DNA of 36,691 bases from a virus (lineage: Duplodnaviria > Heunggongvirae > Uroviricota > Caudoviricetes). Under the pieces are notes generated by a model, which searched no databases, had not been told where the DNA came from, and saw nothing but the letters and a program-made list of their open reading frames with translations. The DNA lies in IMG/VR virus record IMGVR_UViG_2718218358_000002. One strand, written 5' to 3'. This document shows, piece by piece, positions 901 through 27,524 of the stretch. The translations under genes were made by a program, and so were the position numbers. The first letter of the stretch is position 1, and every line of letters begins with the position of its first letter.

Positions 901-1314
901 GATCGTATGTGCCTTTATGATTGGTCTGTAGATAGTGTAGAGCAGAAAACAAAAGGTGGAGTCAGAACAGGATGAAAGTCGGAGGATAAAAAGTCAGTTC
1001 AAGTATGGAGGATTCAGTGGTTACCACCAGGAGCTTGCAATGGGGACAGCGAATACTAACGGCTGCCACCGATAAATTTCAAAAAAGAGCATATGCCTAA
1101 TATTCAACCAAACAGTGGCATCTTAAATATACTATTCCAAATATATTAAAGCCCCCATGGAGTTACCCTGAAGGGCCTCAATGTCCGTAATTCCTACTTA
1201 TGTAGGAAATGTTGTACAGAACATTTATTATAATCCTATTCAATTATAATAATCATGCCATTATTATATTTAAACACTAGAGAGTGTCGTTGGTATTTAA
1301 TGGGGGAAGGTGAG

Positions 1315-1632
1315 ATGAAAAAGATAGCTGCTATATCATTAATTAGTATTTTTATTATGTCTGGTTGTGCTGTGCATAATGATGAGACAAGTATCGGTAA
1401 ATTTGGTCTTGCATATAAAAGTAATATTCAGCGTAAACTCGATAATCAATACTACACCGAAGCCGAAGCTTCTTTAGCCAGGGGCAGAATATCTGGTGCA
1501 GAAAATATAGTAAAAAATGATGCAGCCCATTTCTGTGTTACTCAGGGCAAAAAAATGCAGATAGTTGACCTGAAGACAGAAGGTGCAGGATTACATGGCG
1601 TCGCTCGTCTGACATTCAAATGTGGAGAGTGA
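1315..1632 (+). CDS. yegR: Small putative lipoprotein, 105 aa (YegR-like)
   Basis: ATG at 1315 preceded by GGGGGAAGG RBS; signal peptide with lipobox-like IMSGC; 105 aa and adjacency to yegS match the K-12 yegR neighbourhood (from memory). The ORF-track start at 1255 is an upstream extension. Confidence 0.55.
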   Translation: MKKIAAISLISIFIMSGCAVHNDETSIGKFGLAYKSNIQRKLDNQYYTEAEASLARGRISGAENIVKNDAAHFCVTQGKKMQIVDLKTEGAGLHGVARLTFKCGE

Positions 1633-5479: not shown

Positions 5480-7721
5480 AGCCTCCGGGCGTTTTGTCCC
5501 TCCATCAGCATTTGCCGCAGGCACCGGTAAGGCGTTTACCGGTGCTTATGCATGGAACGCGCCACGCGAGGCTGTCGGGCGCGAAAGACCCCTTACACGT
5601 GACGAGATGCGTCAGGTGCAAGGTGTTTTATCCACGATTAACCGCCTGCCTTACTTTTTGCGCTCGCTGTTTACTTCACGCTATGACTACATCCGGCGCA
5701 ATAAAAGCCCGGTGCACGGGTTTTATTTCCTCACATCCACTTTTCAGCGTCGTTTATGGCCGCGCATTGAGCGCGTGAATCAGCGCCATGAAATGAACAC
5801 CGACGCGTCGTTGCTGTTTCTGGCAGAGCGTGACCATTATGCGCGTCTGCCGGGGATGAATGACAAGGAACTGAAAAAGTTTGCCGCCCGTATCTCATCG
5901 CAGCTTTTCATGATGTATGAGGAACTCTGCGATGCATGGGTTGATGCACATGGCGAGAAAGAATCGCTGTTTACGGATGAGGCTCAGGCGCATCTGTATG
6001 GTCATGTTGCTGGCGCTGCACGAGCTTTCAATATTTCCCCTCTCTACTGGAAAAAATACCGTAAAGGACAGATGACCACGAGGCAGGCATATTCTGCCAT
6101 TGCCCGTCTGTTTAACGATGAGTGGTGGACTCATCAGCTTAAAGGTCAGCGTATGCGCTGGCATGAGGCGTTACTGATTGCTGTCGGGGAGGTGAATAAA
6201 GACCGTTCTCCTTATGCCAGTAAACATGCCATTCGTGATGTGCGTGCGCGCCGCCAGGCAAATCTGGAATTTCTTAAATCGTGTGACCTTGAAAACAGGG
6301 AAACCGGCGAGCGCATCGACCTTATCAGTAAGGTGATGGGAAGTATTTCTAATCCTGAAATTCGCCGGATGGAGCTGATGAACACCATTGCCGGTATTGA
6401 GCGTTACGCCGCCGCAGAGGGTGATGTGGGGATGTTTATCACGCTGACCGCGCCGTCAAAGTATCACCCGACACGTCAGGTCGGAAAAGGTGAAAGTAAA
6501 ACCGTCCAGCTAAATCACGGCTGGAACGATGAGGCATTTAATCCAAAGGATGCGCAGCGTTATCTCTGCCGCATCTGGAGCCTGATGCGCACGGCATTCA
6601 AGGATAATGATTTACAGGTCTACGGTTTGCGTGTCGTCGAGCCACACCACGACGGAACGCCGCACTGGCATATGATGCTTTTTTGTAATCCACGTCAGCG
6701 TAACCAGATTATCGAAACCATGCGTCGCTACGCGCTCAAAGAGGATGGCGACGAAAGAGGAGCCGAGCGAAACCGTTTTCAGGCGAAACACCTTAACCGG
6801 GGCGGTGCTGCGGGGTATATCGCGAAATACATTTCAAAAAATATCGACGGCTATGCACTGGATGGTCAGCTCGATAACGATACCGGCAGACCTCTGAAAG
6901 ATACTGCCGCGGCTGTTACTGCATGGGCGTCAACGTGGCGCATCCCGCAATTTAAAACGGTTGGTCTGCCGACAATGGGGGCTTACCGTGAACTACGCAA
7001 ATTGCCTCGCGGCGTCAGCATTGCTGATGAGTTTGACGAACGCGTCGAGGCTGCACGCGCTGCCGCAGACAGTGGCGATTTTGCGTTGTATATCAGTGCG
7101 CAGGGTGGGGCAAATGTTCCGCGCGATTGCCAGACTGTCAGAGTCGCCCGTAGCCCGTCGGATGAAGTTAACGAGTACGAGGAAGAAGTCGAGAGAGTGG
7201 TCGGCATTTACGCGCCGCATCTCGGCGCGCGTCATATTCATATCACCAGAACGACGGACTGGCGCATTGTTCCGAAAGTTCCGGTCGTGGAGCCTTTAAC
7301 TTTAAAAAGCGGCATCGCCGCGCCTCGGAGTCCTGTCAATAACTGTGGAAAGCTTACCGGTGGTGATTCTCCGGTTATGACCCCCACACCGTCTGAGCAA
7401 GCCACAGCTGTGTTAAATCTGATTGATAAAGGAGTGATTGGTTGGGATGAGCCGGATGTTATAAAGGTGCTTAACGGCGCGTTAAACGCTGGTGCGCCTC
7501 AAAAAAGCAGCCAACAAAGAAATGCAGCATCGCTCAAACCTGCTGAACAGACGCCATCAGCCAGGCTTACCAAAGCGGAGAGGGAGCGGATACCAAAAAT
7601 TCGATTTGATTTGGTTCAGAAAGATATTGTTCCTGAGTGGTGGGAGCTTGAGGTTCTTGCTCGGGGAGCGAAAGTGCATTTTGGATATAAAGTATTCAAA
7701 TATCACAATAATGATAAATAG
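5469..7721 (+). CDS. A: Replication initiation protein A (rolling-circle nickase), 750 aa from ATG 5469
   Basis: Begins MAVKASGRFVPPSAF as I recall P2 A; the ORF-track start at 5427 is a TTG extension; contains the HWHMMLF-type motif region expected for the rolling-circle nickase; the last about 60 aa look divergent from P2 A as I remember it. Confidence 0.85.
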   Translation: MAVKASGRFVPPSAFAAGTGKAFTGAYAWNAPREAVGRERPLTRDEMRQVQGVLSTINRLPYFLRSLFTSRYDYIRRNKSPVHGFYFLTSTFQRRLWPRIERVNQRHEMNTDASLLFLAERDHYARLPGMNDKELKKFAARISSQLFMMYEELCDAWVDAHGEKESLFTDEAQAHLYGHVAGAARAFNISPLYWKKYRKGQMTTRQAYSAIARLFNDEWWTHQLKGQRMRWHEALLIAVGEVNKDRSPYASKHAIRDVRARRQANLEFLKSCDLENRETGERIDLISKVMGSISNPEIRRMELMNTIAGIERYAAAEGDVGMFITLTAPSKYHPTRQVGKGESKTVQLNHGWNDEAFNPKDAQRYLCRIWSLMRTAFKDNDLQVYGLRVVEPHHDGTPHWHMMLFCNPRQRNQIIETMRRYALKEDGDERGAERNRFQAKHLNRGGAAGYIAKYISKNIDGYALDGQLDNDTGRPLKDTAAAVTAWASTWRIPQFKTVGLPTMGAYRELRKLPRGVSIADEFDERVEAARAAADSGDFALYISAQGGANVPRDCQTVRVARSPSDEVNEYEEEVERVVGIYAPHLGARHIHITRTTDWRIVPKVPVVEPLTLKSGIAAPRSPVNNCGKLTGGDSPVMTPTPSEQATAVLNLIDKGVIGWDEPDVIKVLNGALNAGAPQKSSQQRNAASLKPAEQTPSARLTKAERERIPKIRFDLVQKDIVPEWWELEVLARGAKVHFGYKVFKYHNNDK

Positions 7722-7812
7722 GGGTGTGATTTCACTTCTTGTAAGTAGTAACATCAGAAGATTTCGATTACCGTTTGTCTTATTAGTTGCGTTTAAAAAG
7801 AGGTATTTTTAG

Positions 7813-9285
7813 ATGGTTGAAAATTTGAGTGAGATTAGAACATCGACCGTGAATGCATTGTTAGAGAAGGTAAGGCAGAATAATTATGGGAAGTATCTGT
7901 TAAAAGCTAAAATTGGGCGAATTCGCGGATTTTCGGGAGAAGATATTACTTTTGAATTTCCTGTTACAGCCTTGGTTGGTCCTAATGGTAGTGGAAAATC
8001 CTCTGTTCTCGGCGTTGCAGGATGTGCCTATAAAGAAATTAAGCCTAGCGTTTTCTTTCCCAAAAGTGCAATTGGTGATGAAAGCATGGCGGGGTGGAAA
8101 GTTGAATATGATATAATTGATAAAGTTATTAATCCTCGACAAACAGTTCGCAGAACTAGTAGTTTTAGAAGCGCTAAATGGGCGAGAGATGAAGTATTAT
8201 CTAGAGATGTATATTTCTTTGGTATCGAACGGACTGTCCCTGCTGGCGAGAAGACAAAGTACAAAAAGTTAACCCGTTCCTCTTACCAACATACAGGCAG
8301 TTTATCAACGTTGAGTGCAAATGTCGCAAAACAAATAGAACATATTTTGGGCAAGGATGTGTCTGCTTTTAATGTGACAGATATTGGCCATGATGAAAAG
8401 TTTTTTGTAGGCAATAATAATGGTAGCCGTTATTCTGAATTCCATTTTGGTGCGGGTGAGTCATCAATTATAAGAATGGTTTCTGAGATAGAGAATGCAT
8501 CTGATAACAGTTTGGTTCTTATTGAAGAAATTGAAAATGGGCTGCATCCGGTAGCAACGAGACGAATGGTCGAATATCTAATTGATGTTGCCAGTCGTAA
8601 ATCAATTCAGGCTGTTTTTACCACACATAGTGATTATGCCCTGATGCCATTACCACAGGAAGCAATATGGGCATGTATTGATGGACGTCTTAGAAAAGGA
8701 CGGTTAACTGTTGAATCTTTAAGGGCTATATCTGGTAGGGTTGACAAAAAATTAGCTATCTTTGTTGAGGATGAGTTTGCTAAATGCTGGGTTGATACTA
8801 TTCTTCGGGAAAGATTAGGTAGTGATTATGATCAATTAGAAGTACATGCCGTCGCTGGCGATGGAAATGCTGTATCTATTCATAAGTCACACAAGGCAAA
8901 TCCTTCAATTAAATTTAAATCGCTTTGTATTATTGACGGAGATTCTTCACAAGAAGATAGTGATGAAAATGGTGTCTTTAGATTGCCGGGGACTCAACCT
9001 GAACGTAGTGTATTCGATGACATACTTGTGAAAATTGATAATATATTGGCAATACTTACTGTTTCTTGCCAACTGCCTCCAGAATCTCAAGGTAAAGTGA
9101 GAACAGTGGTTGAATCTGTTTCAAGAACGAATCGAGATCCCCATCTTATTTTTAATCAAATAGGCATGGAATTAGGCTTCATTTCAGAAGTGATTATTCG
9201 GGGTGCATTTTTAAGCCTTTGGGCAAGGCAAAATGAAGATTATTGTAGTGATTTAGTAAACAAAGTTAAGGCCCTTCTGGATTGA
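7813..9285 (+). CDS. ABC-type ATPase with C-terminal TOPRIM-like domain (OLD/PARIS-like candidate defence protein), 490 aa
   Basis: Walker A GPNGSGKSS; Walker B/D-loop LVLIEEIENGLHP; H-loop FTTHS; C-terminal IFVEDEF glutamate and CIIDGDS DxD motifs of a TOPRIM fold; AT-rich; occupies the P2 tin/old position between A and cos; own RBS AAAGAGG. Confidence 0.7.
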   Translation: MVENLSEIRTSTVNALLEKVRQNNYGKYLLKAKIGRIRGFSGEDITFEFPVTALVGPNGSGKSSVLGVAGCAYKEIKPSVFFPKSAIGDESMAGWKVEYDIIDKVINPRQTVRRTSSFRSAKWARDEVLSRDVYFFGIERTVPAGEKTKYKKLTRSSYQHTGSLSTLSANVAKQIEHILGKDVSAFNVTDIGHDEKFFVGNNNGSRYSEFHFGAGESSIIRMVSEIENASDNSLVLIEEIENGLHPVATRRMVEYLIDVASRKSIQAVFTTHSDYALMPLPQEAIWACIDGRLRKGRLTVESLRAISGRVDKKLAIFVEDEFAKCWVDTILRERLGSDYDQLEVHAVAGDGNAVSIHKSHKANPSIKFKSLCIIDGDSSQEDSDENGVFRLPGTQPERSVFDDILVKIDNILAILTVSCQLPPESQGKVRTVVESVSRTNRDPHLIFNQIGMELGFISEVIIRGAFLSLWARQNEDYCSDLVNKVKALLD

Positions 9286-18940: not shown

Positions 18941-20014
18941 TTACTTTCCATTTTTTAATGAATTGATTAACGATGCTATTTGCTCAATGCCATCAAATGT
19001 AGATGGTATCTTATCATCGGATAGCATGATGTTTGAAAATACTACGTCTTCGAATTTTGAAAGCGCTTCCGGATTGTTTTTCCTTATCTCTGAGGAATAG
19101 TCGCTATAACTCTGAATGAACTGACAAAGGCTCTTTCTGAGTTCTATTTGCATAATCTGAGTTCGTAACGATATATGATTTAGCAGTACAACTCTAAAGT
19201 AATACATGAAAATCAATGTAACTGATGCAAAAGGTAGTGCTGACATAAAATATGTGGCAGCATTTGTCGTTTCGAGAGCTGGTAATTTATGCATTCCATA
19301 GTATATCAGCGGGGAGGGAATGATTATAGCCAAGATGATAAGAATTATTCTTGATAGCATGATTTCACTTTCTTTCTTTTTGCCAAGTGAATTAAAGCCT
19401 TCAAACAATCCAACAAAATTAAATGCGACCTCATACCCTTTTAATGACTCTTTGATTGACTCTATTTTGGCATGTTGCTCCTTTAAGAAGGAGTCGCACT
19501 TTTCGAAAAATTGACGCCCTTCGTTTAAACTATCAATGTATTTTTTATATGTGTCAACATTGCTGGAGCTTAAAACTTCTTTAACCATTGCTAATGGCAG
19601 TTCTCTAAGAGAAAAGTCTATCTGTGCTCTGCTCCGCTCATCGAATTCATTATAGTTATACAGAGCAAAATCCTTGATGGTTCTTAGTGGTGAAAAGTGA
19701 GACTCTATTTCCGGAGAGAGAATGCTTGGTTCAATGATAAATCTAAAAAAGCAAGTGAATATAAGGTTGATGCTGTTGTTATCTTCTCCCTTTTCTCTTA
19801 AGAAACTTTTAAAGGTGTCGCCAATCATAGCAATGTTGTACTGGGATTTTTTGTCCCAATCTTCAGGGTTTTCGGAAATGAAGTTTATTGCTTGAGCAAT
19901 TATTTTGTTTCTGCTTGATTCAAAGTTTGTGCCGGGAGTCAGCGTGTTCAAAAAGACCAGATAATCTTTGAACAATTCTTTCATTGTTTCTGACGAGAAA
20001 AAGTAAGTACTCAT
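18941..20014 (-). CDS. Hypothetical membrane-anchored protein, 357 aa from ATG 20014 (cytoplasmic N-domain, two C-proximal TM helices); accessory gene at the S/V (P2 orf30) locus
   Basis: Minus-strand ORF in strongly AT-rich DNA between S and V; two hydrophobic helices (LSRIILIILAIIIPSPLIYYG and ATYFMSALPFASVTLIFMYYFRVVLL); the ORF-track start at 20110 would overlap V, so ATG at 20014 (or 19984) is preferred. Confidence 0.65.
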   Translation of the reverse strand: MSTYFFSSETMKELFKDYLVFLNTLTPGTNFESSRNKIIAQAINFISENPEDWDKKSQYNIAMIGDTFKSFLREKGEDNNSINLIFTCFFRFIIEPSILSPEIESHFSPLRTIKDFALYNYNEFDERSRAQIDFSLRELPLAMVKEVLSSSNVDTYKKYIDSLNEGRQFFEKCDSFLKEQHAKIESIKESLKGYEVAFNFVGLFEGFNSLGKKKESEIMLSRIILIILAIIIPSPLIYYGMHKLPALETTNAATYFMSALPFASVTLIFMYYFRVVLLNHISLRTQIMQIELRKSLCQFIQSYSDYSSEIRKNNPEALSKFEDVVFSNIMLSDDKIPSTFDGIEQIASLINSLKNGK

Positions 20015-20100
20015 AATGGATTTTGTTGTCCCTTGTTGTTCTGTGCACCAGAAATCGTGGTGTGATTTACTTCGAGATTGTACAGAATCATTATTATCGA

Positions 20101-20730
20101 ATGAATGCACAATACAATGAAATTCTTCGCTTTATACGCAATATGATTCGCACTGGCATTATCGTCGAAACCGACCTTAATGCCGGTCGCTGCCGTGTGC
20201 AGACCGGCGGCATGTGCACCGACTGGCTTCAGTGGCTGACCCATCGCGCCGGTCGTTCGCGCACATGGTGGGCACCTTCCGTGGGGGAACAGGTGCTGAT
20301 TCTGGCCGTGGGCGGTGAACTCGACACGGCGTTCGTTCTGCCGGGGATTTATTCCGGCGATAACCCCGCGCCGTCGGCGTCGGCGGATGCCCTGCATATC
20401 CGTTTCCCTGACGGGGCGGTGATTGAGTATGAACCTGAAACCAGTGCACTCACGGTAAGCGGAATTAAAACGGCCAGCGTGACGGCTTCTGATTCTGTTA
20501 CTGCCACGGTGCCGGTGGTCATGGTGAAAGCATCAACCCGCGTCACCCTGGACACACCGGAGGTGGTCTGCACCAACAAGCTGATTACCGGCACGCTGGA
20601 AGTGCAGAAGGGCGGGACGATGCGCGGCAACATTGAACACACCGGCGGTGAACTTTCATCAAACGGGAAGGTACTGCATACCCATAAACACCCCGGCGAC
20701 AGCGGCGGCACAACCGGGAGTCCTCTATGA
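20101..20730 (+). CDS. V: Baseplate spike protein V, 209 aa
   Basis: ATG at 20101 (MNAQYNEIL); size near P2 V. Confidence 0.85.
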   Translation: MNAQYNEILRFIRNMIRTGIIVETDLNAGRCRVQTGGMCTDWLQWLTHRAGRSRTWWAPSVGEQVLILAVGGELDTAFVLPGIYSGDNPAPSASADALHIRFPDGAVIEYEPETSALTVSGIKTASVTASDSVTATVPVVMVKASTRVTLDTPEVVCTNKLITGTLEVQKGGTMRGNIEHTGGELSSNGKVLHTHKHPGDSGGTTGSPL

Positions 20731-22520: not shown

Positions 22521-24611
22521 ATGAGCACAAAATTCAAAACCGTTATCACCACTGCCGGTGCAGCAAAGCTGGCAGCGGCAACCGCACCGGGAGGGCGGAA
22601 GGTCAACATTACCACGATGGCCGTCGGGGATGGCGGTGGTAAATTGCCTGTCCCGGATGCCGGACAGACCGGGCTTATCCATGAAGTCTGGCGACATGCG
22701 CTGAACAAAATCAGCCAGGACAAACGAAACAGTAATTATATTATCGCAGAGCTGGTTATTCCGCCGGAGGTGGGCGGTTTCTGGATGCGTGAACTTGGCC
22801 TGTACGATGATGCGGGAACGCTAATTGCCGTGGCGAACATGGCCGAAAGTTATAAGCCAGCCCTTGCCGAAGGCTCAGGGCGTTCGCAGACCTGCCGCAT
22901 GGTCATCATCGTCAGCAGTGTGGCCTCAGTGGAGCTGACCATTGACACCACAACGGTGATGGCAACGCAGGATTACGTTGATGACAAAATTGCAGAACAT
23001 GAACAGTCACGACGTCACCCTGACGCCTCGCTGACCGCAAAAGGTTTTACTCAGTTAAGCAGTGCGACCAACAGCACGTCTGAAACACTGGCTGCAACTC
23101 CGAAAGCGGTTAAGGCCGCATATGACCTTGCTAACGGGAAATATACCGCACAGGACGCTACCACCGCGCGAAAAGGCCTTGTTCAGCTCAGTAGTGCGAC
23201 TAACAGCACGTCTGAAACGCTCGCCGCAACGCCGAAAGCGGTAAAGGCAGCATATGACCTTGCTAACGGGAAATACACTGCACAGGATGCCACAACAGCG
23301 CGAAAAGGCCTTGTTCAGCTCAGTAGCGCCACCAACAGCGATTCTGAAACGCTTGCGGCAACGCCAAAGGCGGTTAAGACAGCATATGACCTTGCTAACG
23401 GGAAATACACTGCACAGGATGCCACCACGGCGCGAAAAGGTCTTGTCCAGCTCAGTAGCGCCACCAACAGTGATTCTGAAACGCAGGCTGCAACGCCAAA
23501 GGCGGTGAAGTCTGCCTATGACAATGCTGAAAAACGTCTTCAGAAAGATCAGAACGGTGCGGATATTCCGGGAAAGGATACCTTCACGAAAAATATCGGT
23601 GCCTGTCGTGCTTATAGCGGCGCTTTGAGCACTGAAGCCGGAAACTGGACAACCGCTCAGTTTATTGAATGGCTGGATTCCCGTGGTGCATTTAATCATC
23701 CGTACTGGATGTGCAAAGGCTCCTGGTCATATGCAAATAACAAAATCATTACGGATACTGGCTGTGGCAATATTCATCTTGCTGGCGCTGTTATTGAGGT
23801 AATGGGCATAAAGTCTGCAATGACTATTCGTATTACCACACCAACAACATCAAGCGGTGGGGGCGCTACAAGCGCGCAATTTACTTATATTAACCACGGG
23901 GACAACTATGCTCCTGGCTGGCGGCGTGACTGGAACCGTTACGGCGATTCTATGTCTGGAACTATTAATCAGGATAGTGGAAGCCAGAATGCCTATATGT
24001 CTACGGCCTTATGTTCCGGCACCAGAGGCGGCAAAAAATATCTCAGAAAGTTTCGTGGTGGAGAAGGAGACACTATCTGGCATGAAACAGTACAGGGCGG
24101 GGTAATTCGCTGGGCGACAGGTAATACTGATGCTCAGGAAGAATTATCACTCAGCTCTGCTTATGGTCTTCGTTCAAGAGGTGAAATTACATCGCTCAGT
24201 GCTAATGGTCTGCGCATTGCTTATGGCAATTATGGATTCTTTATCAGGAATGATGGCGGCAGCACATATTTAATGCTGACGGCCTCTGGCGATAAATTTG
24301 GAACATGGAACGGTTTAAGACCGCTGACTATCAATAACGCCAATGGCGGAGTGTCAATGGGGCATGGCCTGAGTGTTACTGGACGTGTTAACCCATCAGA
24401 TTACGGAAATTTTGATTCCCGCTATGTGAAAGATGTTCGCCTGGGTACGCGTGTTGTTCAGACCATGCAAAAAGGCGTGATGTATGAGAAATCAGGCCAT
24501 GTAATTACAGGGCTTGGCATTGTCGGCGAAGTTGATGGCGATGATCCGGCAGTATTCAGACCAATACAAAAATACATTAATGGCACATGGTATAACGTCG
24601 CACAGGTGTAA
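22521..24611 (+). CDS. H: Tail fiber protein H, 696 aa
   Basis: Position after I; four tandem 44-aa repeats (GLVQLSSATNS(T/D)SETLAATPKAVKAAYDLANGKYTAQDATTARK) typical of tail fibers; C-terminal receptor-binding region looks divergent from P2 H as I remember it. Confidence 0.85.
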   Translation: MSTKFKTVITTAGAAKLAAATAPGGRKVNITTMAVGDGGGKLPVPDAGQTGLIHEVWRHALNKISQDKRNSNYIIAELVIPPEVGGFWMRELGLYDDAGTLIAVANMAESYKPALAEGSGRSQTCRMVIIVSSVASVELTIDTTTVMATQDYVDDKIAEHEQSRRHPDASLTAKGFTQLSSATNSTSETLAATPKAVKAAYDLANGKYTAQDATTARKGLVQLSSATNSTSETLAATPKAVKAAYDLANGKYTAQDATTARKGLVQLSSATNSDSETLAATPKAVKTAYDLANGKYTAQDATTARKGLVQLSSATNSDSETQAATPKAVKSAYDNAEKRLQKDQNGADIPGKDTFTKNIGACRAYSGALSTEAGNWTTAQFIEWLDSRGAFNHPYWMCKGSWSYANNKIITDTGCGNIHLAGAVIEVMGIKSAMTIRITTPTTSSGGGATSAQFTYINHGDNYAPGWRRDWNRYGDSMSGTINQDSGSQNAYMSTALCSGTRGGKKYLRKFRGGEGDTIWHETVQGGVIRWATGNTDAQEELSLSSAYGLRSRGEITSLSANGLRIAYGNYGFFIRNDGGSTYLMLTASGDKFGTWNGLRPLTINNANGGVSMGHGLSVTGRVNPSDYGNFDSRYVKDVRLGTRVVQTMQKGVMYEKSGHVITGLGIVGEVDGDDPAVFRPIQKYINGTWYNVAQV
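23040..23567 (+). repeat. Four tandem 132-bp repeats inside the tail fiber gene
   Basis: Near-identical 132-bp units read directly (for example 23161-23220 versus 23293-23352); they generate the spurious antisense ORFs at 23055-23699. Confidence 0.8.
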
Positions 24612-24614
24612 TTT

Positions 24615-25142
24615 ATGCAGCATTTAAAAAATATTACTGCGGGTAATCCCAAAACTGTTGCCCAATATCAACTGACAAAAAATTTTGATGTTATCTGGTT
24701 ATGGTCTGAAGACGGAAAAAACTGGTATGAGGAAGTAAGTAATTTTCAGGAAGACACGATAAAGATTGTTTACGACGAGAATAATATAATTGTCGGCATC
24801 ACCAGAGATGCTTCAACGCTTAACCCTGAAGGTTTTAGCGTTGTCGAGGTTCCTGATATTACCGCCAACCGACGTGCTGATGACTCAGGTAAATGGATGT
24901 TTAAGGATGGTGCCGTGATTAAGCGGATTTATACGGCAGACGAACAGCAGCAACTGGCAGAATCACAAAAGGCAACTTTACTTTCCGAAGCTGAATCCGT
25001 GATTTTGCCGCTGGAGCGCGCTGTCAGGCTGAATATGGCAACAGATGAGGAGCGCAGCCGACTGGAAGCATGGGAACGCTACAGCGTTCTGGTCAGTCGT
25101 GTGGATCCTGCAAATCCTGAATGGCCGGAAATGCCGCAATAA
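24615..25142 (+). CDS. G: Tail fiber assembly chaperone G, 175 aa
   Basis: 175 aa as in P2 G; immediately after H. Confidence 0.85.
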
Positions 25143-25457
25143 GTTGTATGAGCTGACATACCTATAGCACAGAGTAAAGTCTAATCTGACAGTCCGCTCT
25201 GTGCCAAGAGCAGACGCTGGTAATTCGTGCCTAATATACTTCACTTAACTTATATCCCAGCTTTGATACAGATCATACAAATTAAATGCCCCAGTAATTG
25301 GCAGGCTGAGTAACTTAAAACTCCTTAGAATATAGGATGATTTGTATCGGCACTCATTCCACCATGCATTCCGATTAATCCCGCATAGCCAGTTGAACTT
25401 TGCTACTCTGTGAGAGGTAGTACCTTCTATCCAGTGCGGATTTAATTAATGGAATAA

Positions 25458-27461
25458 ATGATTATGAGTGAAAATGATACAACCCCAAAGAAGTCTACAA
25501 GCCAGGTTAACAAAGCGGTATTCTTTACATCTGCTTTGCTAATTTTCCTTCTTGTCGCCTTTGCCGCCGTATTCCCGGATGTCGCCGACAAAAATTTTAA
25601 ACTACTTCAGCAACAAATCTTCACGAATGCCAGCTGGTTCTACATACTTGCTGTGGCCCTGATTTTACTGAGCGTCACGTTCCTTGGACTCTCACGTTAC
25701 GGTGATATAAAGCTGGGCCCAGACCATGCGCAGCCTGATTTCAGCTACCACTCCTGGTTCGCGATGCTTTTTTCGGCAGGGATGGGGATCGGCCTGATGT
25801 TCTTTGGCGTTGCCGAACCTGTGATGCATTATCTTTCGCCACCTGTCGGCACTCCAGAGACCGTTGCGGCAGCGAAGGAAGCCATGCGCCTGACGTTCTT
25901 CCACTGGGGTCTGCACGCATGGGCAATTTATGCCATCGTGGCGCTGATTCTGGCCTTTTTCAGTTACCGTCACGGTCTGCCTTTAACGCTGCGTTCTGCG
26001 CTCTATCCCATTATCGGCGATCGCATTTACGGGCCTATAGGCCACGCGGTTGATATCTTCGCCGTGATAGGCACTGTCTTTGGCGTTGCAACATCGCTGG
26101 GTTACGGTGTATTGCAGGTGAATGCCGGTTTGAACCATCTTTTCGGCGTGCCCATCAATGAAACGGTACAGGTCATTTTGATCGTGGTCATCACGGGGTT
26201 AGCGACGATTTCGGTGGTGTCCGGCCTGGACAAGGGAATACGCATCCTGTCTGAGCTTAATCTGGGCCTGGCGGTGTTGCTCCTGGCGCTGGTCTTGTGC
26301 CTGGGTCCCACTGTGCTTCTGCTGAAGTCATTTGTGGAAAATACGGGTGGTTATCTGTCGGAACTGGTGAGTAAAACGTTCAACCTTTACGCGTATGAAC
26401 CCAAGTCGAGCAACTGGCTGGGGGGCTGGACATTATTATACTGGGGATGGTGGCTTTCATGGTCGCCGTTTGTAGGTATGTTCATTGCACGCGTTTCCCG
26501 CGGCAGGACAATTCGTGAGTTCGTGACTGGCGTGTTGTTTGTTCCCGCCGGCTTTACGCTCATGTGGATGACGGTGTTTGGAAACAGCGCCATCTATCTC
26601 ATCATGAACCAGGGCGCCACTGACCTCGCCAATACCGTTCAGCAGGATGTTGCGCTTGCCCTGTTTAATTTCCTGGAGCATTTCCCGTTCTCTTCCGTGC
26701 TGTCATTCATTGCAATGGCGATGGTCATCGTCTTCTTTGTAACGTCTGCTGATTCGGGGGCAATGGTTGTGGATACTCTGGCATCAGGTGGGGTGGCAAA
26801 CACGCCCGTCTGGCAGCGAATTTTCTGGGCATTGCTCATGGGCGTTGTTGCTATTGCCCTGCTGATCGCAGGGGGGCTGAGTGCGTTGCAAACCGTAACG
26901 ATAGCGAGTGCATTGCCCTTCTCAGTTATCTTATTAATATCCATATACGGACTGTTAAAAGCCCTGCGTCGGGATTTGACCAAGCGTGAAAGCCTTAGCA
27001 TGGCGACTATTGCTCCTACGGCTGCACGTAACCCAATTCCCTGGCAGAGAAGGTTACGCAATATCGCGTATTTGCCGAAGCGCTCTCTTGTGAAACGTTT
27101 TATGGACGACATTATCCAACCCGCCATGACGCTGGTTCAGGAGGAACTTAACAAGCAGGGAACGATAAGCCACATCAGTGACGCCGCCGAGGATCGTATT
27201 CGCCTTGAAGTCGATTTGGGCAACGAGCTGAATTATATATATGAAGTGAGGCTTCGCGGGTATAACTCACCGACCTTCGCGCTCGCTGCGCTGGATAATG
27301 ATGAGCAGCAGAGTGAACAACATCGATATTATCGCGCTGAAGTCTATCTCAAAGAGGGCGGCCAAAATTATGATGTAATGGGCTGGAATCAGGAACAGCT
27401 GATTAATGACATACTGGACCAGTACGAAAAACACCTGCACTTCCTGCATCTGGTTCGTTAA
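25458..27461 (+). CDS. BCCT-family transporter, BetT-like (choline/betaine-type), 667 aa; prophage cargo
   Basis: BCCT signature WTLLYWGWWLSWSPFVG; about 12 TM helices; C-terminal cytoplasmic tail ending QEQLINDILDQYEKHLHFLHLVR, resembling the E. coli BetT tail as I recall it; located in the G-FI variable region. Confidence 0.75.
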   Translation: MIMSENDTTPKKSTSQVNKAVFFTSALLIFLLVAFAAVFPDVADKNFKLLQQQIFTNASWFYILAVALILLSVTFLGLSRYGDIKLGPDHAQPDFSYHSWFAMLFSAGMGIGLMFFGVAEPVMHYLSPPVGTPETVAAAKEAMRLTFFHWGLHAWAIYAIVALILAFFSYRHGLPLTLRSALYPIIGDRIYGPIGHAVDIFAVIGTVFGVATSLGYGVLQVNAGLNHLFGVPINETVQVILIVVITGLATISVVSGLDKGIRILSELNLGLAVLLLALVLCLGPTVLLLKSFVENTGGYLSELVSKTFNLYAYEPKSSNWLGGWTLLYWGWWLSWSPFVGMFIARVSRGRTIREFVTGVLFVPAGFTLMWMTVFGNSAIYLIMNQGATDLANTVQQDVALALFNFLEHFPFSSVLSFIAMAMVIVFFVTSADSGAMVVDTLASGGVANTPVWQRIFWALLMGVVAIALLIAGGLSALQTVTIASALPFSVILLISIYGLLKALRRDLTKRESLSMATIAPTAARNPIPWQRRLRNIAYLPKRSLVKRFMDDIIQPAMTLVQEELNKQGTISHISDAAEDRIRLEVDLGNELNYIYEVRLRGYNSPTFALAALDNDEQQSEQHRYYRAEVYLKEGGQNYDVMGWNQEQLINDILDQYEKHLHFLHLVR

Positions 27462-27468
27462 CAGCAAC

Positions 27469-27497
27469 ATGCCGCCACAGAGGCGGCATTTATTTAT
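27469..27497 (+). terminator. Rho-independent terminator after the BetT-like gene
   Basis: ATGCCGCC-ACAGA-GGCGGCAT 8-bp stem followed by TTATTTAT. Confidence 0.65.
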
Positions 27498-27524
27498 CCC
27501 GGCTGCAATATGAGGGAATGCAGA

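What the first reader, a model, noticed from the sequence alone, without database searches (positions are those of the whole stretch)
25458..27461. BetT-like osmolyte transporter carried as prophage cargo
The protein has the BCCT signature (WTLLYWGWWLSWSPFVG) and a C-terminal cytoplasmic regulatory tail closely resembling that of E. coli BetT as I recall it. A full-length osmoprotectant transporter inside a tail-gene hotspot is unusual cargo. It could be lysogenic conversion for osmotic fitness, or a transporter co-opted as a sensor or effector.
Basis: partly seen in the sequence, partly recalled or inferred. Interest (0 to 1): 0.55.

Follow-up and report, generated by a model that had tools for sequence, protein, structure and literature searches.

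The report
betU betaine transporter cassette in prophage
The gene is betU, a known accessory E. coli transporter that imports the osmoprotectant glycine betaine; it is ordinary in itself, but it sits in a P2-like prophage as a cassette bounded by short recombination sites, which suggests how phage "hotspots" swap cargo with other phages and plasmids.

Summary
Window 25458/25464-27461 (+) is an intact BCCT transporter with a BetT-type C-terminal domain. It lies between tail genes G and FI, the Z/fun hotspot, of a complete ~35-kb P2-like prophage.

It is not a new "BetT-like" protein. It is betU: 98% identical to the BetU of transposon Tn6062, which confers growth in 0.8 M NaCl on S. Typhi, and to the common E. 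coli chromosomal allele. It is only 42% identical to BetT. Its substrate-site motif (AGMGIG) is the betaine/BetP type, not the BetT type (AGIGID).

betU is present in 36% of complete E. coli genomes and in more than 1,500 plasmids. The P2 location is rare: 3 records, 2 strains.

The more interesting result concerns delivery. betU+DUF2254 forms a 3.65-kb module, and the neighbouring 269-aa gene a second one. Both are bounded by 24-bp palindromic sites with two spacer classes, GTGCCA and TCGCTC. The same modules, at 99.9-100% identity, occur in lambdoid prophages and IncF plasmids, and the breakpoints always fall in the spacer. A 200-aa tyrosine recombinase forms another module of the same kind.

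Lysogenic conversion for osmotolerance is supported. A sensor or defence role is not.

The parts
22521..24611 (+). P2-type tail fibre gene H (left backbone)
   Evidence: Pfam Phage_tail_fib, Phage_fiber_2 and Gp34_trimer; RefSeq 'tail fiber protein'.
24615..25142 (+). Tail-fibre assembly gene G, the last gene of the late operon before the hotspot
   Evidence: Pfam Caudo_TAP, E 9e-35.
25180..25215 (.). Left recombination site S1. The core is 25192-25215: GTCCGCTCT-GTGCCA-AGAGCAGAC. The left arm and the flank tctaatctgaca belong to the P2 backbone; the right arm belongs to module A.
   Evidence: The same left arm and flank occur in P2-EC58, P2, pro147 and 12474II. The same right arm and inner flank occur in the plasmid and lambdoid copies.
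25216..25463 (+). betU upstream region, carried with the module. It must hold the gene's own promoter, which was not pinpointed.
   Evidence: It is identical in all module-A copies. Only the last ~70 nt are retained in Tn6062. The consensus promoter scan was uninformative.
25464..27461 (+). betU, a BCCT glycine-betaine transporter of 665 aa. The ORF's first ATG is at 25458.
27469..27489 (+). Terminator-like GC hairpin with a T-rich tail, directly after betU
27525..28802 (+). DUF2254 membrane protein (425 aa; the ORF opens at 27510). It is the second gene of module A and its function is unknown.
   Evidence: Pfam DUF2254, E 2e-92. It is paired with betU in Tn6062, on plasmids and in Leclercia and Lelliottia chromosomes. 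The AF2 model has no informative structural match.
28865..28888 (.). Middle site S2, GTCTGCTTT-GTGCCA-ACAGCGGAC, the junction between module A and module B
   Evidence: In other replicons the same left half is joined to other modules (C in L003/L004, a ParA module in L006).
28943..29752 (-). Module B: an AT-rich (36% GC) gene for a 269-aa Cys-rich protein of unknown function. Public records annotate it 'chaperonin' or 'metal-binding domain protein'.
   Evidence: There are no Pfam, NCBIfam, PADLOC or PDB hits. It is the only Z-locus gene in phage pro147.
29868..29901 (.). Right site S3. The core is 29873-29896: GTCTGCTTT-TCGCTC-AAAGCAGAC. The right arm and the flank tgtcagatttga belong to the P2 backbone.
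   Evidence: (I16). P2-like phages share homology from exactly here. GenBank AJ512683 annotates it as 'right inverted repeat'.
29965..29985 (+). Strong intrinsic terminator in the P2 backbone ahead of FI
30089..31279 (+). Tail sheath gene FI (right backbone)
   Evidence: phrog_23 tail sheath.

Best explanation
The ORF is an allele of betU, the accessory betaine-specific BCCT transporter of E. coli. It is a secondary transporter, and its BetT-type cytoplasmic C-terminal domain is the likely osmosensor. When osmolarity rises it imports glycine betaine or proline betaine, so the lysogen tolerates salt and urine better. This is classic lysogenic conversion by a 'moron' gene.

The gene is probably Na+-coupled. 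That is an inference from the BetP-like AGMGIG motif and from the conserved residues of the BetP aromatic substrate box and sodium sites.

The gene did not evolve in the phage. betU and its chromosomal neighbour DUF2254 were captured as a 3.65-kb module (A) bounded by two 24-bp sites. Each site has 9-nt inverted arms, GTCYGCTYT and ARAGCRGAC, around a 6-nt spacer, here GTGCCA. Module A and the adjacent 269-aa module B (bounded GTGCCA...TCGCTC) were placed in the P2 Z/fun hotspot by site-specific exchange at the phage's own two heterospecific sites: GTGCCA on the G side and TCGCTC on the FI side. The most likely enzyme is a 200-aa tyrosine recombinase acting in trans. It is itself a module of the same system (TCGCTC|D|GTGCCA) and is absent from this prophage.

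Shown: gene identity, residue conservation, distribution, and breakpoints inside the spacers. Taken from papers: the betaine specificity and the osmotolerance phenotype of near-identical alleles. Inferred: the coupling ion, expression in this lysogen, and the identity of the recombinase.
For: Identity.
- The protein is 649/665 identical to the betU of IS1-betU-DUF2254-IS1 (Tn6062) on a S. Typhi IncHI1 plasmid. The cloned two-gene fragment of that transposon gives growth in 0.8 M NaCl (PMC3139670).
- It is 650/665 identical to the common IS-flanked E. coli allele.
- It occurs in 1,931 of 5,426 genomes (36%). As I recall it, Ly et al. 2004 reported ~1/3 incidence.
- One plasmid record names its ~93%-identical betU copy 'Secondary glycine betaine transporter BetU'.
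- BetU is described as betaine-specific and BetT as choline-specific (PMC4411257).

Residues.
- AGMGIGLMFFG matches BetP AGMGIGLMFYG, whereas BetT has AGIGIDLMFFS.
- The equivalents of the BetP Trp box (W373, W374, W377, F380), of W189/W194/Y197 and of T467/S468 are all conserved.
- Orthologues down to ~60% identity keep (S/A)AGMGIG.

Context.
- The prophage is a complete P2-like element and the cargo lies between G and FI.

Cassette.
- The window holds 3 sites against 0.03 expected by chance.
- The A+B segment is 99.9-100% identical in P2-like prophages, Rac/Qin-like prophages and IncF qnrS1 plasmids. Homology ends inside the sites.
- Every junction is a recombinant of two half-sites, including the predicted D|C junction in L002.
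- In 220 viral loci, 216 have all sites in the same orientation. There are 134 GTGCCA-module-TCGCTC units, and modules A and B occur in both P2-like and lambdoid backbones.
- The Z locus of P2, pro147, 12474II and P2-EC58 carries the same two sites.
Against: - No transport or expression data exist for this allele or this lysogen.
- No convincing sigma-70 promoter was found upstream.
- I recall the abstract of Ly et al. 2004 reporting that deleting betU did not impair growth in urine or bladder colonisation. The paper could not be read here. The fitness benefit may therefore be conditional.
- I could not compare directly with the original HU734 BetU sequence.
- The recombinase gene is absent from this window and from 218 of the 220 site-bearing viral loci. 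No excised circles or empty sites were observed, so the enzymology is inferred from breakpoints alone.
- Most Klebsiella plasmid copies and Tn6062 lack the sites, so betU also moves by IS-mediated routes.
Confidence: 0.78

Rival explanations
1. The gene is a second BetT, a proton-coupled choline transporter that feeds the betIBA pathway.
For: The NCBIfam BetT subfamily model scores 751.8, above its cut-off of 695. RefSeq sometimes names the protein 'choline BCCT transporter BetT'. The C-terminal domain is homologous to BetT's over its whole length.
Against: Identity to BetT is only 42%. The TM3 motif has Gly, as in betaine/Na+ BetP, where BetT has Asp. The protein is 98% identical to betU, which the literature calls betaine-specific. 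No bet genes lie nearby, and the genomes keep their own betT elsewhere.
Confidence: 0.04
2. The transporter, with DUF2254, has been co-opted as an anti-phage defence or sensor module, because it sits in hotspots that mostly hold defence genes.
For: The P2 Z/fun locus and the second P2 hotspot hold defence genes (PMC9122126; PMC13586616). The window's other hotspot holds a HEC-04 ATPase. The neighbouring modules are unknown AT-rich genes typical of defence cargo. DUF2254 has no known function.
Against: PADLOC gives no hit for BetU, DUF2254 or the 269-aa protein. BetU is 94.7% identical to ordinary chromosomal orthologues in Leclercia and Lelliottia, which have the same DUF2254 neighbour and no sites. 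All transport residues are intact. The near-identical pair gives an osmotolerance phenotype. DUF2254 is truncated or deleted in many betU loci.
Confidence: 0.04
3. betU is a selectively neutral passenger here. The module landed in the hotspot by chance through the cassette-exchange system, and it is poorly expressed or of no benefit in this lysogen.
For: The P2::betU junction is found in only 3 records, 2 strains, plus one further P2-like background in IMG/VR. No promoter was identified. As I recall the Ly 2004 abstract, deleting betU gave no phenotype in urine or in mice.
Against: The gene is intact and identical to copies kept in hundreds of genomes. A Tn6062 clone starting only ~70 nt upstream of betU, in plasmid pACYC184, confers osmotolerance. 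Hotspot cargo in P2 is reported to turn over fast without pseudogenes, which implies selection.
Confidence: 0.12
4. The cassette arrived by homologous or illegitimate recombination. The palindromes are merely conserved structural or regulatory elements (hairpins) that provide microhomology, not recombinase sites.
For: The sites fold as 8-9-bp hairpins. No recombinase gene lies in the prophage. The 2026 survey lists homologous and illegitimate recombination as candidate mechanisms.
Against: - Backbone-specific arm variants always stay with the backbone and module-specific arms with the module, so crossovers are confined to the 6-nt spacer.
- Only two spacer classes are seen at the sites surveyed, and 216 of 220 loci have every site in one orientation. 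Both are what tyrosine-recombinase core sites predict.
- A tyrosine recombinase gene is itself bounded by half-sites of both classes.
- The flanks in P2-like prophages, lambdoid prophages and plasmids share no homology beyond the sites.
- The sites are not followed by T-runs.
Confidence: 0.15

Closest known systems
E. coli BetU (Ly et al. 2004, J Bacteriol 186:296) and the betU of Tn6062 on IncHI1 PST6 plasmids (Holt et al. 2011, PMC3139670)
   Same: The protein has the same length (665 aa) and is 98% identical to the Tn6062 and common chromosomal alleles. It has the same DUF2254 gene downstream. It is accessory and laterally transferred, and occurs in ~36% of E. coli genomes.
   Different: Here it is flanked by 24-bp recombination sites rather than by IS1 or other IS elements, and it lies inside a P2-like prophage tail-gene hotspot. 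This allele class (>=99% identical to the window) differs by ~7% at the nucleotide level from the common chromosomal and Klebsiella-plasmid alleles.
E. coli BetT (choline transporter; PDB 9vbn/9vbp)
   Same: It belongs to the BCCT fold and has a long C-terminal cytoplasmic domain homologous to BetT's down to the last residues. It matches the same NCBIfam subfamily model.
   Different: Identity is 42%. It has Gly instead of Asp in the TM3 motif (AGMGIG against AGIGID). It is not linked to betIBA. Its reported substrate is betaine, not choline.
Corynebacterium glutamicum BetP (Na+/betaine symporter; PDB 2wit, 4ain and others)
   Same: The Gly-rich TM3 stretch is identical, the aromatic box and the Na2-site Thr/Ser are conserved, and the match has E 1e-97. 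BetP is the best mechanistic model for transport.
   Different: The terminal domains differ. BetU has the ~155-aa BetT-type C-terminal domain, whereas BetP has a short helical C-terminus and a charged N-terminal extension.
Inverted-repeat-flanked Z/fun region of P2-like coliphages (Nilsson, Karlsson & Haggard-Ljungquist 2004, Mol Biol Evol 21:1; GenBank AJ512683)
   Same: The locus (G-FI) is the same. The left and right inverted repeats are the same and contain the GTGCCA and TCGCTC sites. The idea that site-specific recombination links this locus with plasmids and other genomes is also the same.
   Different: I could not read that paper, so I cannot say what it covers. Worked out here are the two-spacer grammar, the recombinase module, the multi-module arrays, the lambdoid DUF977-hokD hotspot as the main home, and betU as cargo.
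pdif modules of Acinetobacter plasmids (XerC/XerD-dependent; from my own knowledge) and integron cassettes
   Same: Both are discrete gene modules without their own transposase, bounded by short recombinase sites with a 6-nt spacer, shuffled between replicons and arranged in arrays.
   Different: The arms bear no resemblance to dif or XerCD sites. The sites are co-oriented and alternate in spacer class, rather than alternating in orientation. There is no IntI-type integrase and no attC-length site. The candidate enzyme is a 200-aa recombinase that consists of a catalytic domain only.
Engineered recombinase-mediated cassette exchange (RMCE) with heterospecific lox or FRT sites
   Same: A backbone carries two incompatible sites that differ only in the spacer, and a cassette flanked by the same pair replaces the resident one.
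   Different: This would be a natural system, and the enzyme has not been demonstrated.

Membership tests
BCCT transporters (Pfam PF02028 / TIGR00842) | Full-length match to the family profile above the curated cut-off | tested here: met
   PF02028 scores 662.8 bits against a cut-off of 27, covering profile positions 1-485 of 485. TIGR00842 scores 543.6 against 407.55.
BCCT transporters (Pfam PF02028 / TIGR00842) | Conserved TM8 tryptophan box, TM4 aromatic residues and Gly-rich TM3 stretch | tested here: met
   WTLLYWGWWLSWSPFVGMF, FHWGLHAWAIY and AGMGIGLMFFG align with BetP W373/W374/W377/F380, W189/W194/Y197 and G149-G153.
BetU (betaine-specific accessory BCCT of E. coli) | Near-identity to a betU allele with a demonstrated phenotype | tested here: met
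   The protein is 649/665 identical to the betU gene of Tn6062 on a S. Typhi IncHI1 plasmid. The phenotype comes from PMC3139670.
BetU (betaine-specific accessory BCCT of E. coli) | Non-core gene present in roughly one third of E. coli strains and associated with mobile DNA | tested here: met
   It occurs in 1,931 of 5,426 genomes. Contexts are IS-flanked, prophage and plasmid.
BetU (betaine-specific accessory BCCT of E. coli) | Transports glycine betaine or proline betaine, not choline, and is osmotically activated | not testable with these tools
   The only support is the literature statement and the BetP-like substrate-site motif.
BetT (choline transporter of the bet regulon) | Match to the NCBIfam BetT model | tested here: met
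   NF007399 scores 751.8 against 695. It is a 'subfamily' model, not an equivalog, and evidently also covers BetU.
BetT (choline transporter of the bet regulon) | Asp in the TM3 motif (AGIGID), the residue tied to choline/H+ specificity in BetP G153D work (from my own knowledge) | tested here: not met
   The window protein has Gly (AGMGIG), whereas K-12 BetT and 9vbn have Asp.
BetT (choline transporter of the bet regulon) | Divergently linked to betIBA | tested here: not met
   The neighbours are phage tail genes, DUF2254 and a 269-aa ORF. The true betT lies next to betI and betB elsewhere.
P2 Z/fun-locus cargo (moron in a P2-like hotspot) | Located between tail-fibre assembly gene G and sheath gene FI of a P2-like phage, outside the late operons | tested here: met
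   P2, W-phi, pro147 and 12474II carry other genes at the same place.
Site-bounded exchange modules (inverted-repeat-flanked Z region; Nilsson et al. 2004) | Module bounded by the conserved inverted-repeat sites, with homology to other replicons ending inside the sites | tested here: met
   The sites lie at 25192-25215, 28865-28888 and 29873-29896. Junction half-sites recombine as predicted in 6 replicon contexts. The grammar holds in 220 viral loci.
Site-bounded exchange modules (inverted-repeat-flanked Z region; Nilsson et al. 2004) | A dedicated recombinase catalyses the exchange | not testable with these tools
   The candidate is a 200-aa tyrosine recombinase module with intact R..HxxR..H..Y motifs. 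It is present in 770 of 5,426 genomes but absent from this window.
Anti-phage defence systems (PADLOC-DB 2.0) | Profile match of any cargo protein to a known or candidate defence family | tested here: not met
   There are no hits for BetU, DUF2254 or the 269-aa protein at E<=0.01.
Composite transposon Tn6062 | IS1 copies flanking betU-DUF2254 | tested here: not met
   No transposase gene lies between G and FI, and the RefSeq annotation of the identical region lists none. Tn6062 itself is seen in L008.
Xer/dif-type modules (pdif) | Site arms resemble the XerC/XerD binding sites of dif or cer | tested here: not met
   By inspection, the arms GTCYGCTYT and ARAGCRGAC do not resemble GGTGCGCATAA and TTATGTTAAAT, the dif arms as I remember them.

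The most novel reading that the evidence does not exclude
The betU module exposes a natural cassette-exchange network resembling engineered RMCE. The P2-like Z/fun hotspot, the lambdoid DUF977-hokD hotspot and IncF plasmids all carry the same two heterospecific 24-bp core sites, with spacers GTGCCA and TCGCTC. Gene modules bounded by these sites, at least 87 families that include osmoprotection and probable defence genes, would be swapped among them by a minimal 200-aa tyrosine recombinase. That enzyme is itself a module and acts in trans. This would supply the mobilisation mechanism that the 2026 P2/P4 hotspot survey calls unresolved. It would also explain why P4, which lacks the sites, never exchanges cargo with P2.
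Probability: 0.5. Interest if true: 0.75.

Novelty: new member of a known kind. Interest (0 to 1): 0.42.

Why it matters
The transporter adds little on its own. betU is a characterised accessory osmoprotectant transporter, and its lateral transfer on plasmids and IS-flanked islands is documented. What is new is a rare carrier: betU can also ride in a P2-like phage, so a phage could transduce betaine-dependent osmotolerance.

The context matters more. The same 100%-identical modules sit in three unrelated kinds of replicon, and the breakpoints always fall in the 6-nt spacer of a conserved palindromic site. This is a concrete, testable mechanism for the very fast cargo turnover at prophage hotspots. 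A 2026 survey of thousands of P2 and P4 elements states that these recombination processes 'still need to be elucidated' and that no mobilisation functions are known (PMC13586616). Nilsson et al. proposed site-specific recombination at this locus in 2004, but the papers read here that cite or would be expected to use it do not pursue the idea.

Tried and rejected
- Defence function: PADLOC gave nothing for the three cargo proteins or for modules C and D. Rejected as unsupported.
- DUF2254 function: no PDB sequence hit and only four papers, none functional. An AF2 model from 40 homologues (pLDDT 80.5) had no Foldseek match in PDB at E<=0.001. Dead end.
- The 269-aa protein: no Pfam, NCBIfam, PADLOC or PDB hit. 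It remains unknown.
- Promoter: the consensus scan found no more sites than in shuffled sequence and none convincing upstream of betU. An alignment of upstream regions fixed the start codon but not the promoter.
- The original BetU paper (Ly et al. 2004) could not be read by DOI or PMC id. Statements about it rest on my memory of the abstract and on citing papers.
- From 80 species loci I first inferred that DUF2254 is never a native neighbour of betU. This was wrong. Searching from the DUF2254 side showed the pair in Leclercia and Lelliottia chromosomes, and the 80 loci were a truncated sample.
- C. braakii looked like a native source (97% aa identity) but is a decayed mobile copy, with a degenerate left site and an internal DUF2254 deletion.
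- Hairpin terminators as an explanation of the sites: rejected, because no T-run follows them.
- Xer/dif as the recombination system: rejected by inspection of the arms.
- P4: no sites in the reference genome, and no P4 markers in the 220 site-bearing loci.
Full report
OBSERVATION. The ORF is real. It runs 25458..27461 on the + strand, encodes 667 aa without interruption, and contains WTLLYWGWWLSWSPFVG. Pfam BCCT covers it end to end (E 3e-199). NCBIfam places it above the cut-offs of the bcct model and of the BetT subfamily model, but below that of the 'betaine_BCCT' equivalog. An alignment of upstream regions from seven alleles and orthologues shows which start is conserved. The second ATG (25464, MSEND...) and a GGAA 9-12 nt upstream of it are conserved, and the first ATG is not. 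The likely product is therefore 665 aa, as RefSeq annotates.

The window is a complete P2-like prophage of about 35 kb.
- yegS lies at 1-900, and the P2 att core AAAAAATAAGCCCGTGTAAGGGAGATT at ~1793.
- The integrase, replication gene A, portal, terminase, baseplate and tail genes follow.
- ogr is followed by yegQ.
- The cargo lies between tail-fibre assembly gene G and sheath gene FI, the position of Z/fun in P2.

WHAT THE GENE IS. The protein is 649/665 identical to the BCCT gene of IS1-BCCT-DUF2254-IS1 on a S. Typhi IncHI1 plasmid. Holt et al. call that gene betU of Tn6062. They show that the cloned two-gene fragment lets S. Typhi grow in 0.8 M NaCl (PMC3139670). The protein is also 650/665 identical to the common E. 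coli chromosomal allele. That allele lies near fec between IS elements, and its DUF2254 gene is cut by IS911.

At the DNA level the gene is present at >=80% coverage in 1,931 of 5,426 complete E. coli genomes. There are two allele classes: 406 records at >=99% identity and 1,553 at about 93%. This frequency fits the roughly one-third incidence that I recall from Ly et al. 2004, a paper that could not be opened here. The betU-DUF2254 pair is also on 1,539 plasmids, 1,269 of them from Klebsiella, and one record names it 'Secondary glycine betaine transporter BetU'.

Identity to K-12 BetT is only 42%, although the alignment runs through the whole C-terminal domain to the last residues.

In the substrate and ion region the protein has AGMGIGLMFFG. 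This matches Na+/betaine BetP (AGMGIGLMFYG). BetT has AGIGIDLMFFS. From memory, BetP G153D shifts the transporter towards choline and H+. The BetP aromatic-box residues (W189, W194, Y197, W373, W374, W377), F380 and the T467/S468 pair are all conserved. A review states that BetU is betaine-specific and BetT choline-specific (PMC4411257).

ORIGIN. BetU orthologues are chromosomal in many Gammaproteobacteria: Cedecea and Serratia at 93-94% aa identity, Providencia at ~77%, Pseudomonas at ~65%. Most keep the (S/A)AGMGIG motif. In those 80 loci DUF2254 is not adjacent. However, searching from the DUF2254 side shows the pair in Leclercia adecarboxylata and Lelliottia amnigena chromosomes. There BetU is 94.7% identical and DUF2254 72-75% identical, the spacing is the same ~65 nt, the flanking genes differ, and there are no recombination sites. 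The mobile unit is thus a captured two-gene chromosomal block.

DUF2254 is not needed to keep betU. It is truncated in the common E. coli allele and internally deleted in a decayed copy in Citrobacter braakii. Its function stayed unknown. There are no PDB relatives and no functional literature, and an AF2 model (pLDDT 80.5) has no informative structural match.

HOW IT GOT INTO THE PHAGE. The 4.7-kb segment holding betU, DUF2254 and the 269-aa gene is 99.9-100% identical in 33 E. coli records of three unrelated kinds:
- this P2-like prophage;
- Rac/Qin-like lambdoid prophages, between a DUF977 gene and hokD;
- IncF qnrS1 plasmids, next to relBE.

Homology ends at a 24-bp palindromic site, GTCYGCTYT-N6-ARAGCRGAC. 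The window has three such sites, at 25192, 28865 and 29873, against 0.03 expected by chance. They define module A (betU+DUF2254, with a GTGCCA spacer on both sides) and module B (the 269-aa gene, GTGCCA on the left and TCGCTC on the right).

Other replicons add two more modules: C (a 476-aa unknown protein, GTGCCA...TCGCTC) and D (a 200-aa tyrosine recombinase, TCGCTC...GTGCCA). At every junction the left arm stays with the left partner and the right arm with the right partner. For example, the P2-specific arm GTCCGCTCT stays with P2, and AGAGCAGAC stays with module A. All crossovers therefore lie in the 6-nt spacer.

Two plasmids differ in module order, A-C-D-B against A-B-D-C. This is exactly what excision of a C-D circle through the GTGCCA sites and re-insertion through a TCGCTC site would give. 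The predicted D|C junction, AGCAGCCCT-GTGCCA-AAAGCGGGC, is present.

P2, pro147, 12474II and P2-EC58 have the same left (GTGCCA) and right (TCGCTC) sites around their own Z-locus genes. W-phi shows the right (TCGCTC) site at the threshold used. GenBank AJ512683 annotates the sites as left and right inverted repeats. The record's title and organism match the P2-EC58 Z-region work of Nilsson et al. 2004, whose title proposes site-specific recombination at this locus. Phage pro147 carries module B alone, but at only ~94% identity. A and B here are virtually identical to the plasmid and lambdoid copies. The A-B block therefore most likely entered as one GTGCCA...TCGCTC unit by two-site exchange.

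GENERALITY. Among the 220 loci retrieved:
- 51 are P2-like, 74 lambdoid (DUF977/hokD) and 95 other;
- 216 have all sites in the same orientation;
- adjacent site pairs are GTGCCA->TCGCTC 134 times (343-5,860 nt apart), TCGCTC->GTGCCA 30 times (mostly 16-18-nt linkers between the two sites), and GTGCCA->GTGCCA 16 times (median 3,673 nt, which is module A);
- the 160 modules fall into 87 families, and A, B and one further family occur in both P2-like and lambdoid backbones;
- betU is in 12 loci: 9 lambdoid, 2 P2-like (one identical to this window and one, L187, with a G protein only 77% identical) and 1 other.

In complete E. coli genomes the P2::betU junction exists in 3 records, 2 strains. The recombinase module is in 770 of 5,426 genomes, typically in the lambdoid array, but in only 2 of the 220 viral loci. 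It would therefore have to act in trans. Its role is inferred, not shown.

In this window the sites occur only at the Z locus, not at the other hotspot. The P4 reference genome has none, and no site-bearing locus has P4 markers. This fits the reported absence of P2-P4 cargo exchange.

WHAT IS KNOWN. betU, its betaine specificity, its patchy distribution and its carriage on Tn6062 are published. Neither Rousset et al. 2022, nor the 2026 P2-virus catalogue, nor the 2026 hotspot paper mentions BCCT or betaine cargo; the last does not mention the repeats either. The hotspot paper lists transposons, homologous recombination and illegitimate recombination as candidate mechanisms and calls the process unresolved.

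VERDICT. The finding is a correct observation of a known gene in a rare but unsurprising carrier. Lysogenic conversion for osmotolerance is the best-supported function, and a sensor or defence role is unsupported. The added value lies in the precise module boundaries, which point to a site-specific, two-site cassette-exchange system linking P2-like phages, lambdoid prophages and plasmids.

Noticed in passing
window 7813-9285 (+): A 490-aa AAA/ABC-type ATPase matches the PADLOC candidate defence family HEC-04 almost end to end (E 3e-225). It lies right after replication gene A, in the other P2 hotspot (the tin/old position). No GTGCCA or TCGCTC sites flank it, so that hotspot must exchange cargo in a different way.
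   Followed up: partly
window 18941-20110 (-): An AT-rich (36-40% GC) 389-aa ORF on the opposite strand lies between the tail-completion genes and baseplate gene V, the position of P2 orf30. It matches only phrog_9373 (unknown function), with no Pfam or PADLOC hit. It looks like a third cargo slot.
   Followed up: no
window 28943-29752 (-): Module B encodes a 269-aa Cys-rich protein (CNICG...HVPPKC...CSHCNN) with no family or structure match. Public records call it 'chaperonin' or 'metal-binding domain protein', which looks like annotation carry-over. It is the sole Z-locus gene of phage pro147 and occurs in 18 of the 220 site-bearing viral loci, so it may be a defence gene.
   Followed up: partly
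L003:13736-14443; L090:8992-9699; L101:9321-10028: A 200-aa tyrosine recombinase (WP_001752951 and ~92%-identical alleles) consists of a catalytic domain only and has intact R/HxxR/H/Y motifs. It forms its own module with fixed half-sites: TCGCTC|ATAAGGGAC on the left and AGCAGCCCT|GTGCCA on the right. It is present in 770 of 5,426 E. coli genomes, mostly in the lambdoid DUF977-hokD array.
   Followed up: partly
L090 / L101 (lambdoid prophages), DUF977 to hokD: These are multi-module arrays: DUF977 | GTGCCA-module-TCGCTC, an 18-nt linker, GTGCAA-module-TCGCTC, [recombinase], GTGCCA-module-TCGCTC | hokD. All the module genes are unannotated. This lambdoid slot appears to be the main home of the system, and of betU (9 of 12 viral loci).
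   Followed up: partly
L002 / L003 (IncF qnrS1 plasmids): The whole module array sits next to relB and a truncated relE on the plasmids, which I recall as prophage Qin genes adjacent to hokD in E. coli K-12. The arrays in the lambdoid prophages examined here end at hokD. This suggests the plasmid array was captured from a lambdoid prophage, after which its modules kept shuffling (orders A-C-D-B and A-B-D-C).
   Followed up: partly
L010 (Citrobacter braakii ATCC 51113), ~5720-8140: This is a decayed copy of module A. The left site is degenerate (GGGCTGCTAT-GTGCCC-AGAAGCAGAC), and DUF2254 is deleted internally, joining its first ~30 nt to its last ~80 nt.
   Followed up: yes
L323 (phage P4, NC_001609) and the 220 viral loci: P4 has no site of this kind: the best score is 13/18 with unrelated spacers, which is background level. 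None of the site-bearing loci carries P4 markers. This is a possible reason why P2 and P4 hotspots do not exchange cargo.
   Followed up: partly
window 1255-1632 (+): A small ORF with a lipoprotein-like signal (MKKIAAISLISIFIMSGC...) lies between yegS and the prophage attL. It has no Pfam hit.
   Followed up: no
L006:12408-15192: Another GTGCCA...TCGCTC module follows betU-DUF2254 in a lambdoid prophage. It encodes a ParA-family ATPase plus two unknown proteins, and the ParA protein has a weak PADLOC PDC-M28B hit. It is a candidate three-gene defence system.
   Followed up: no
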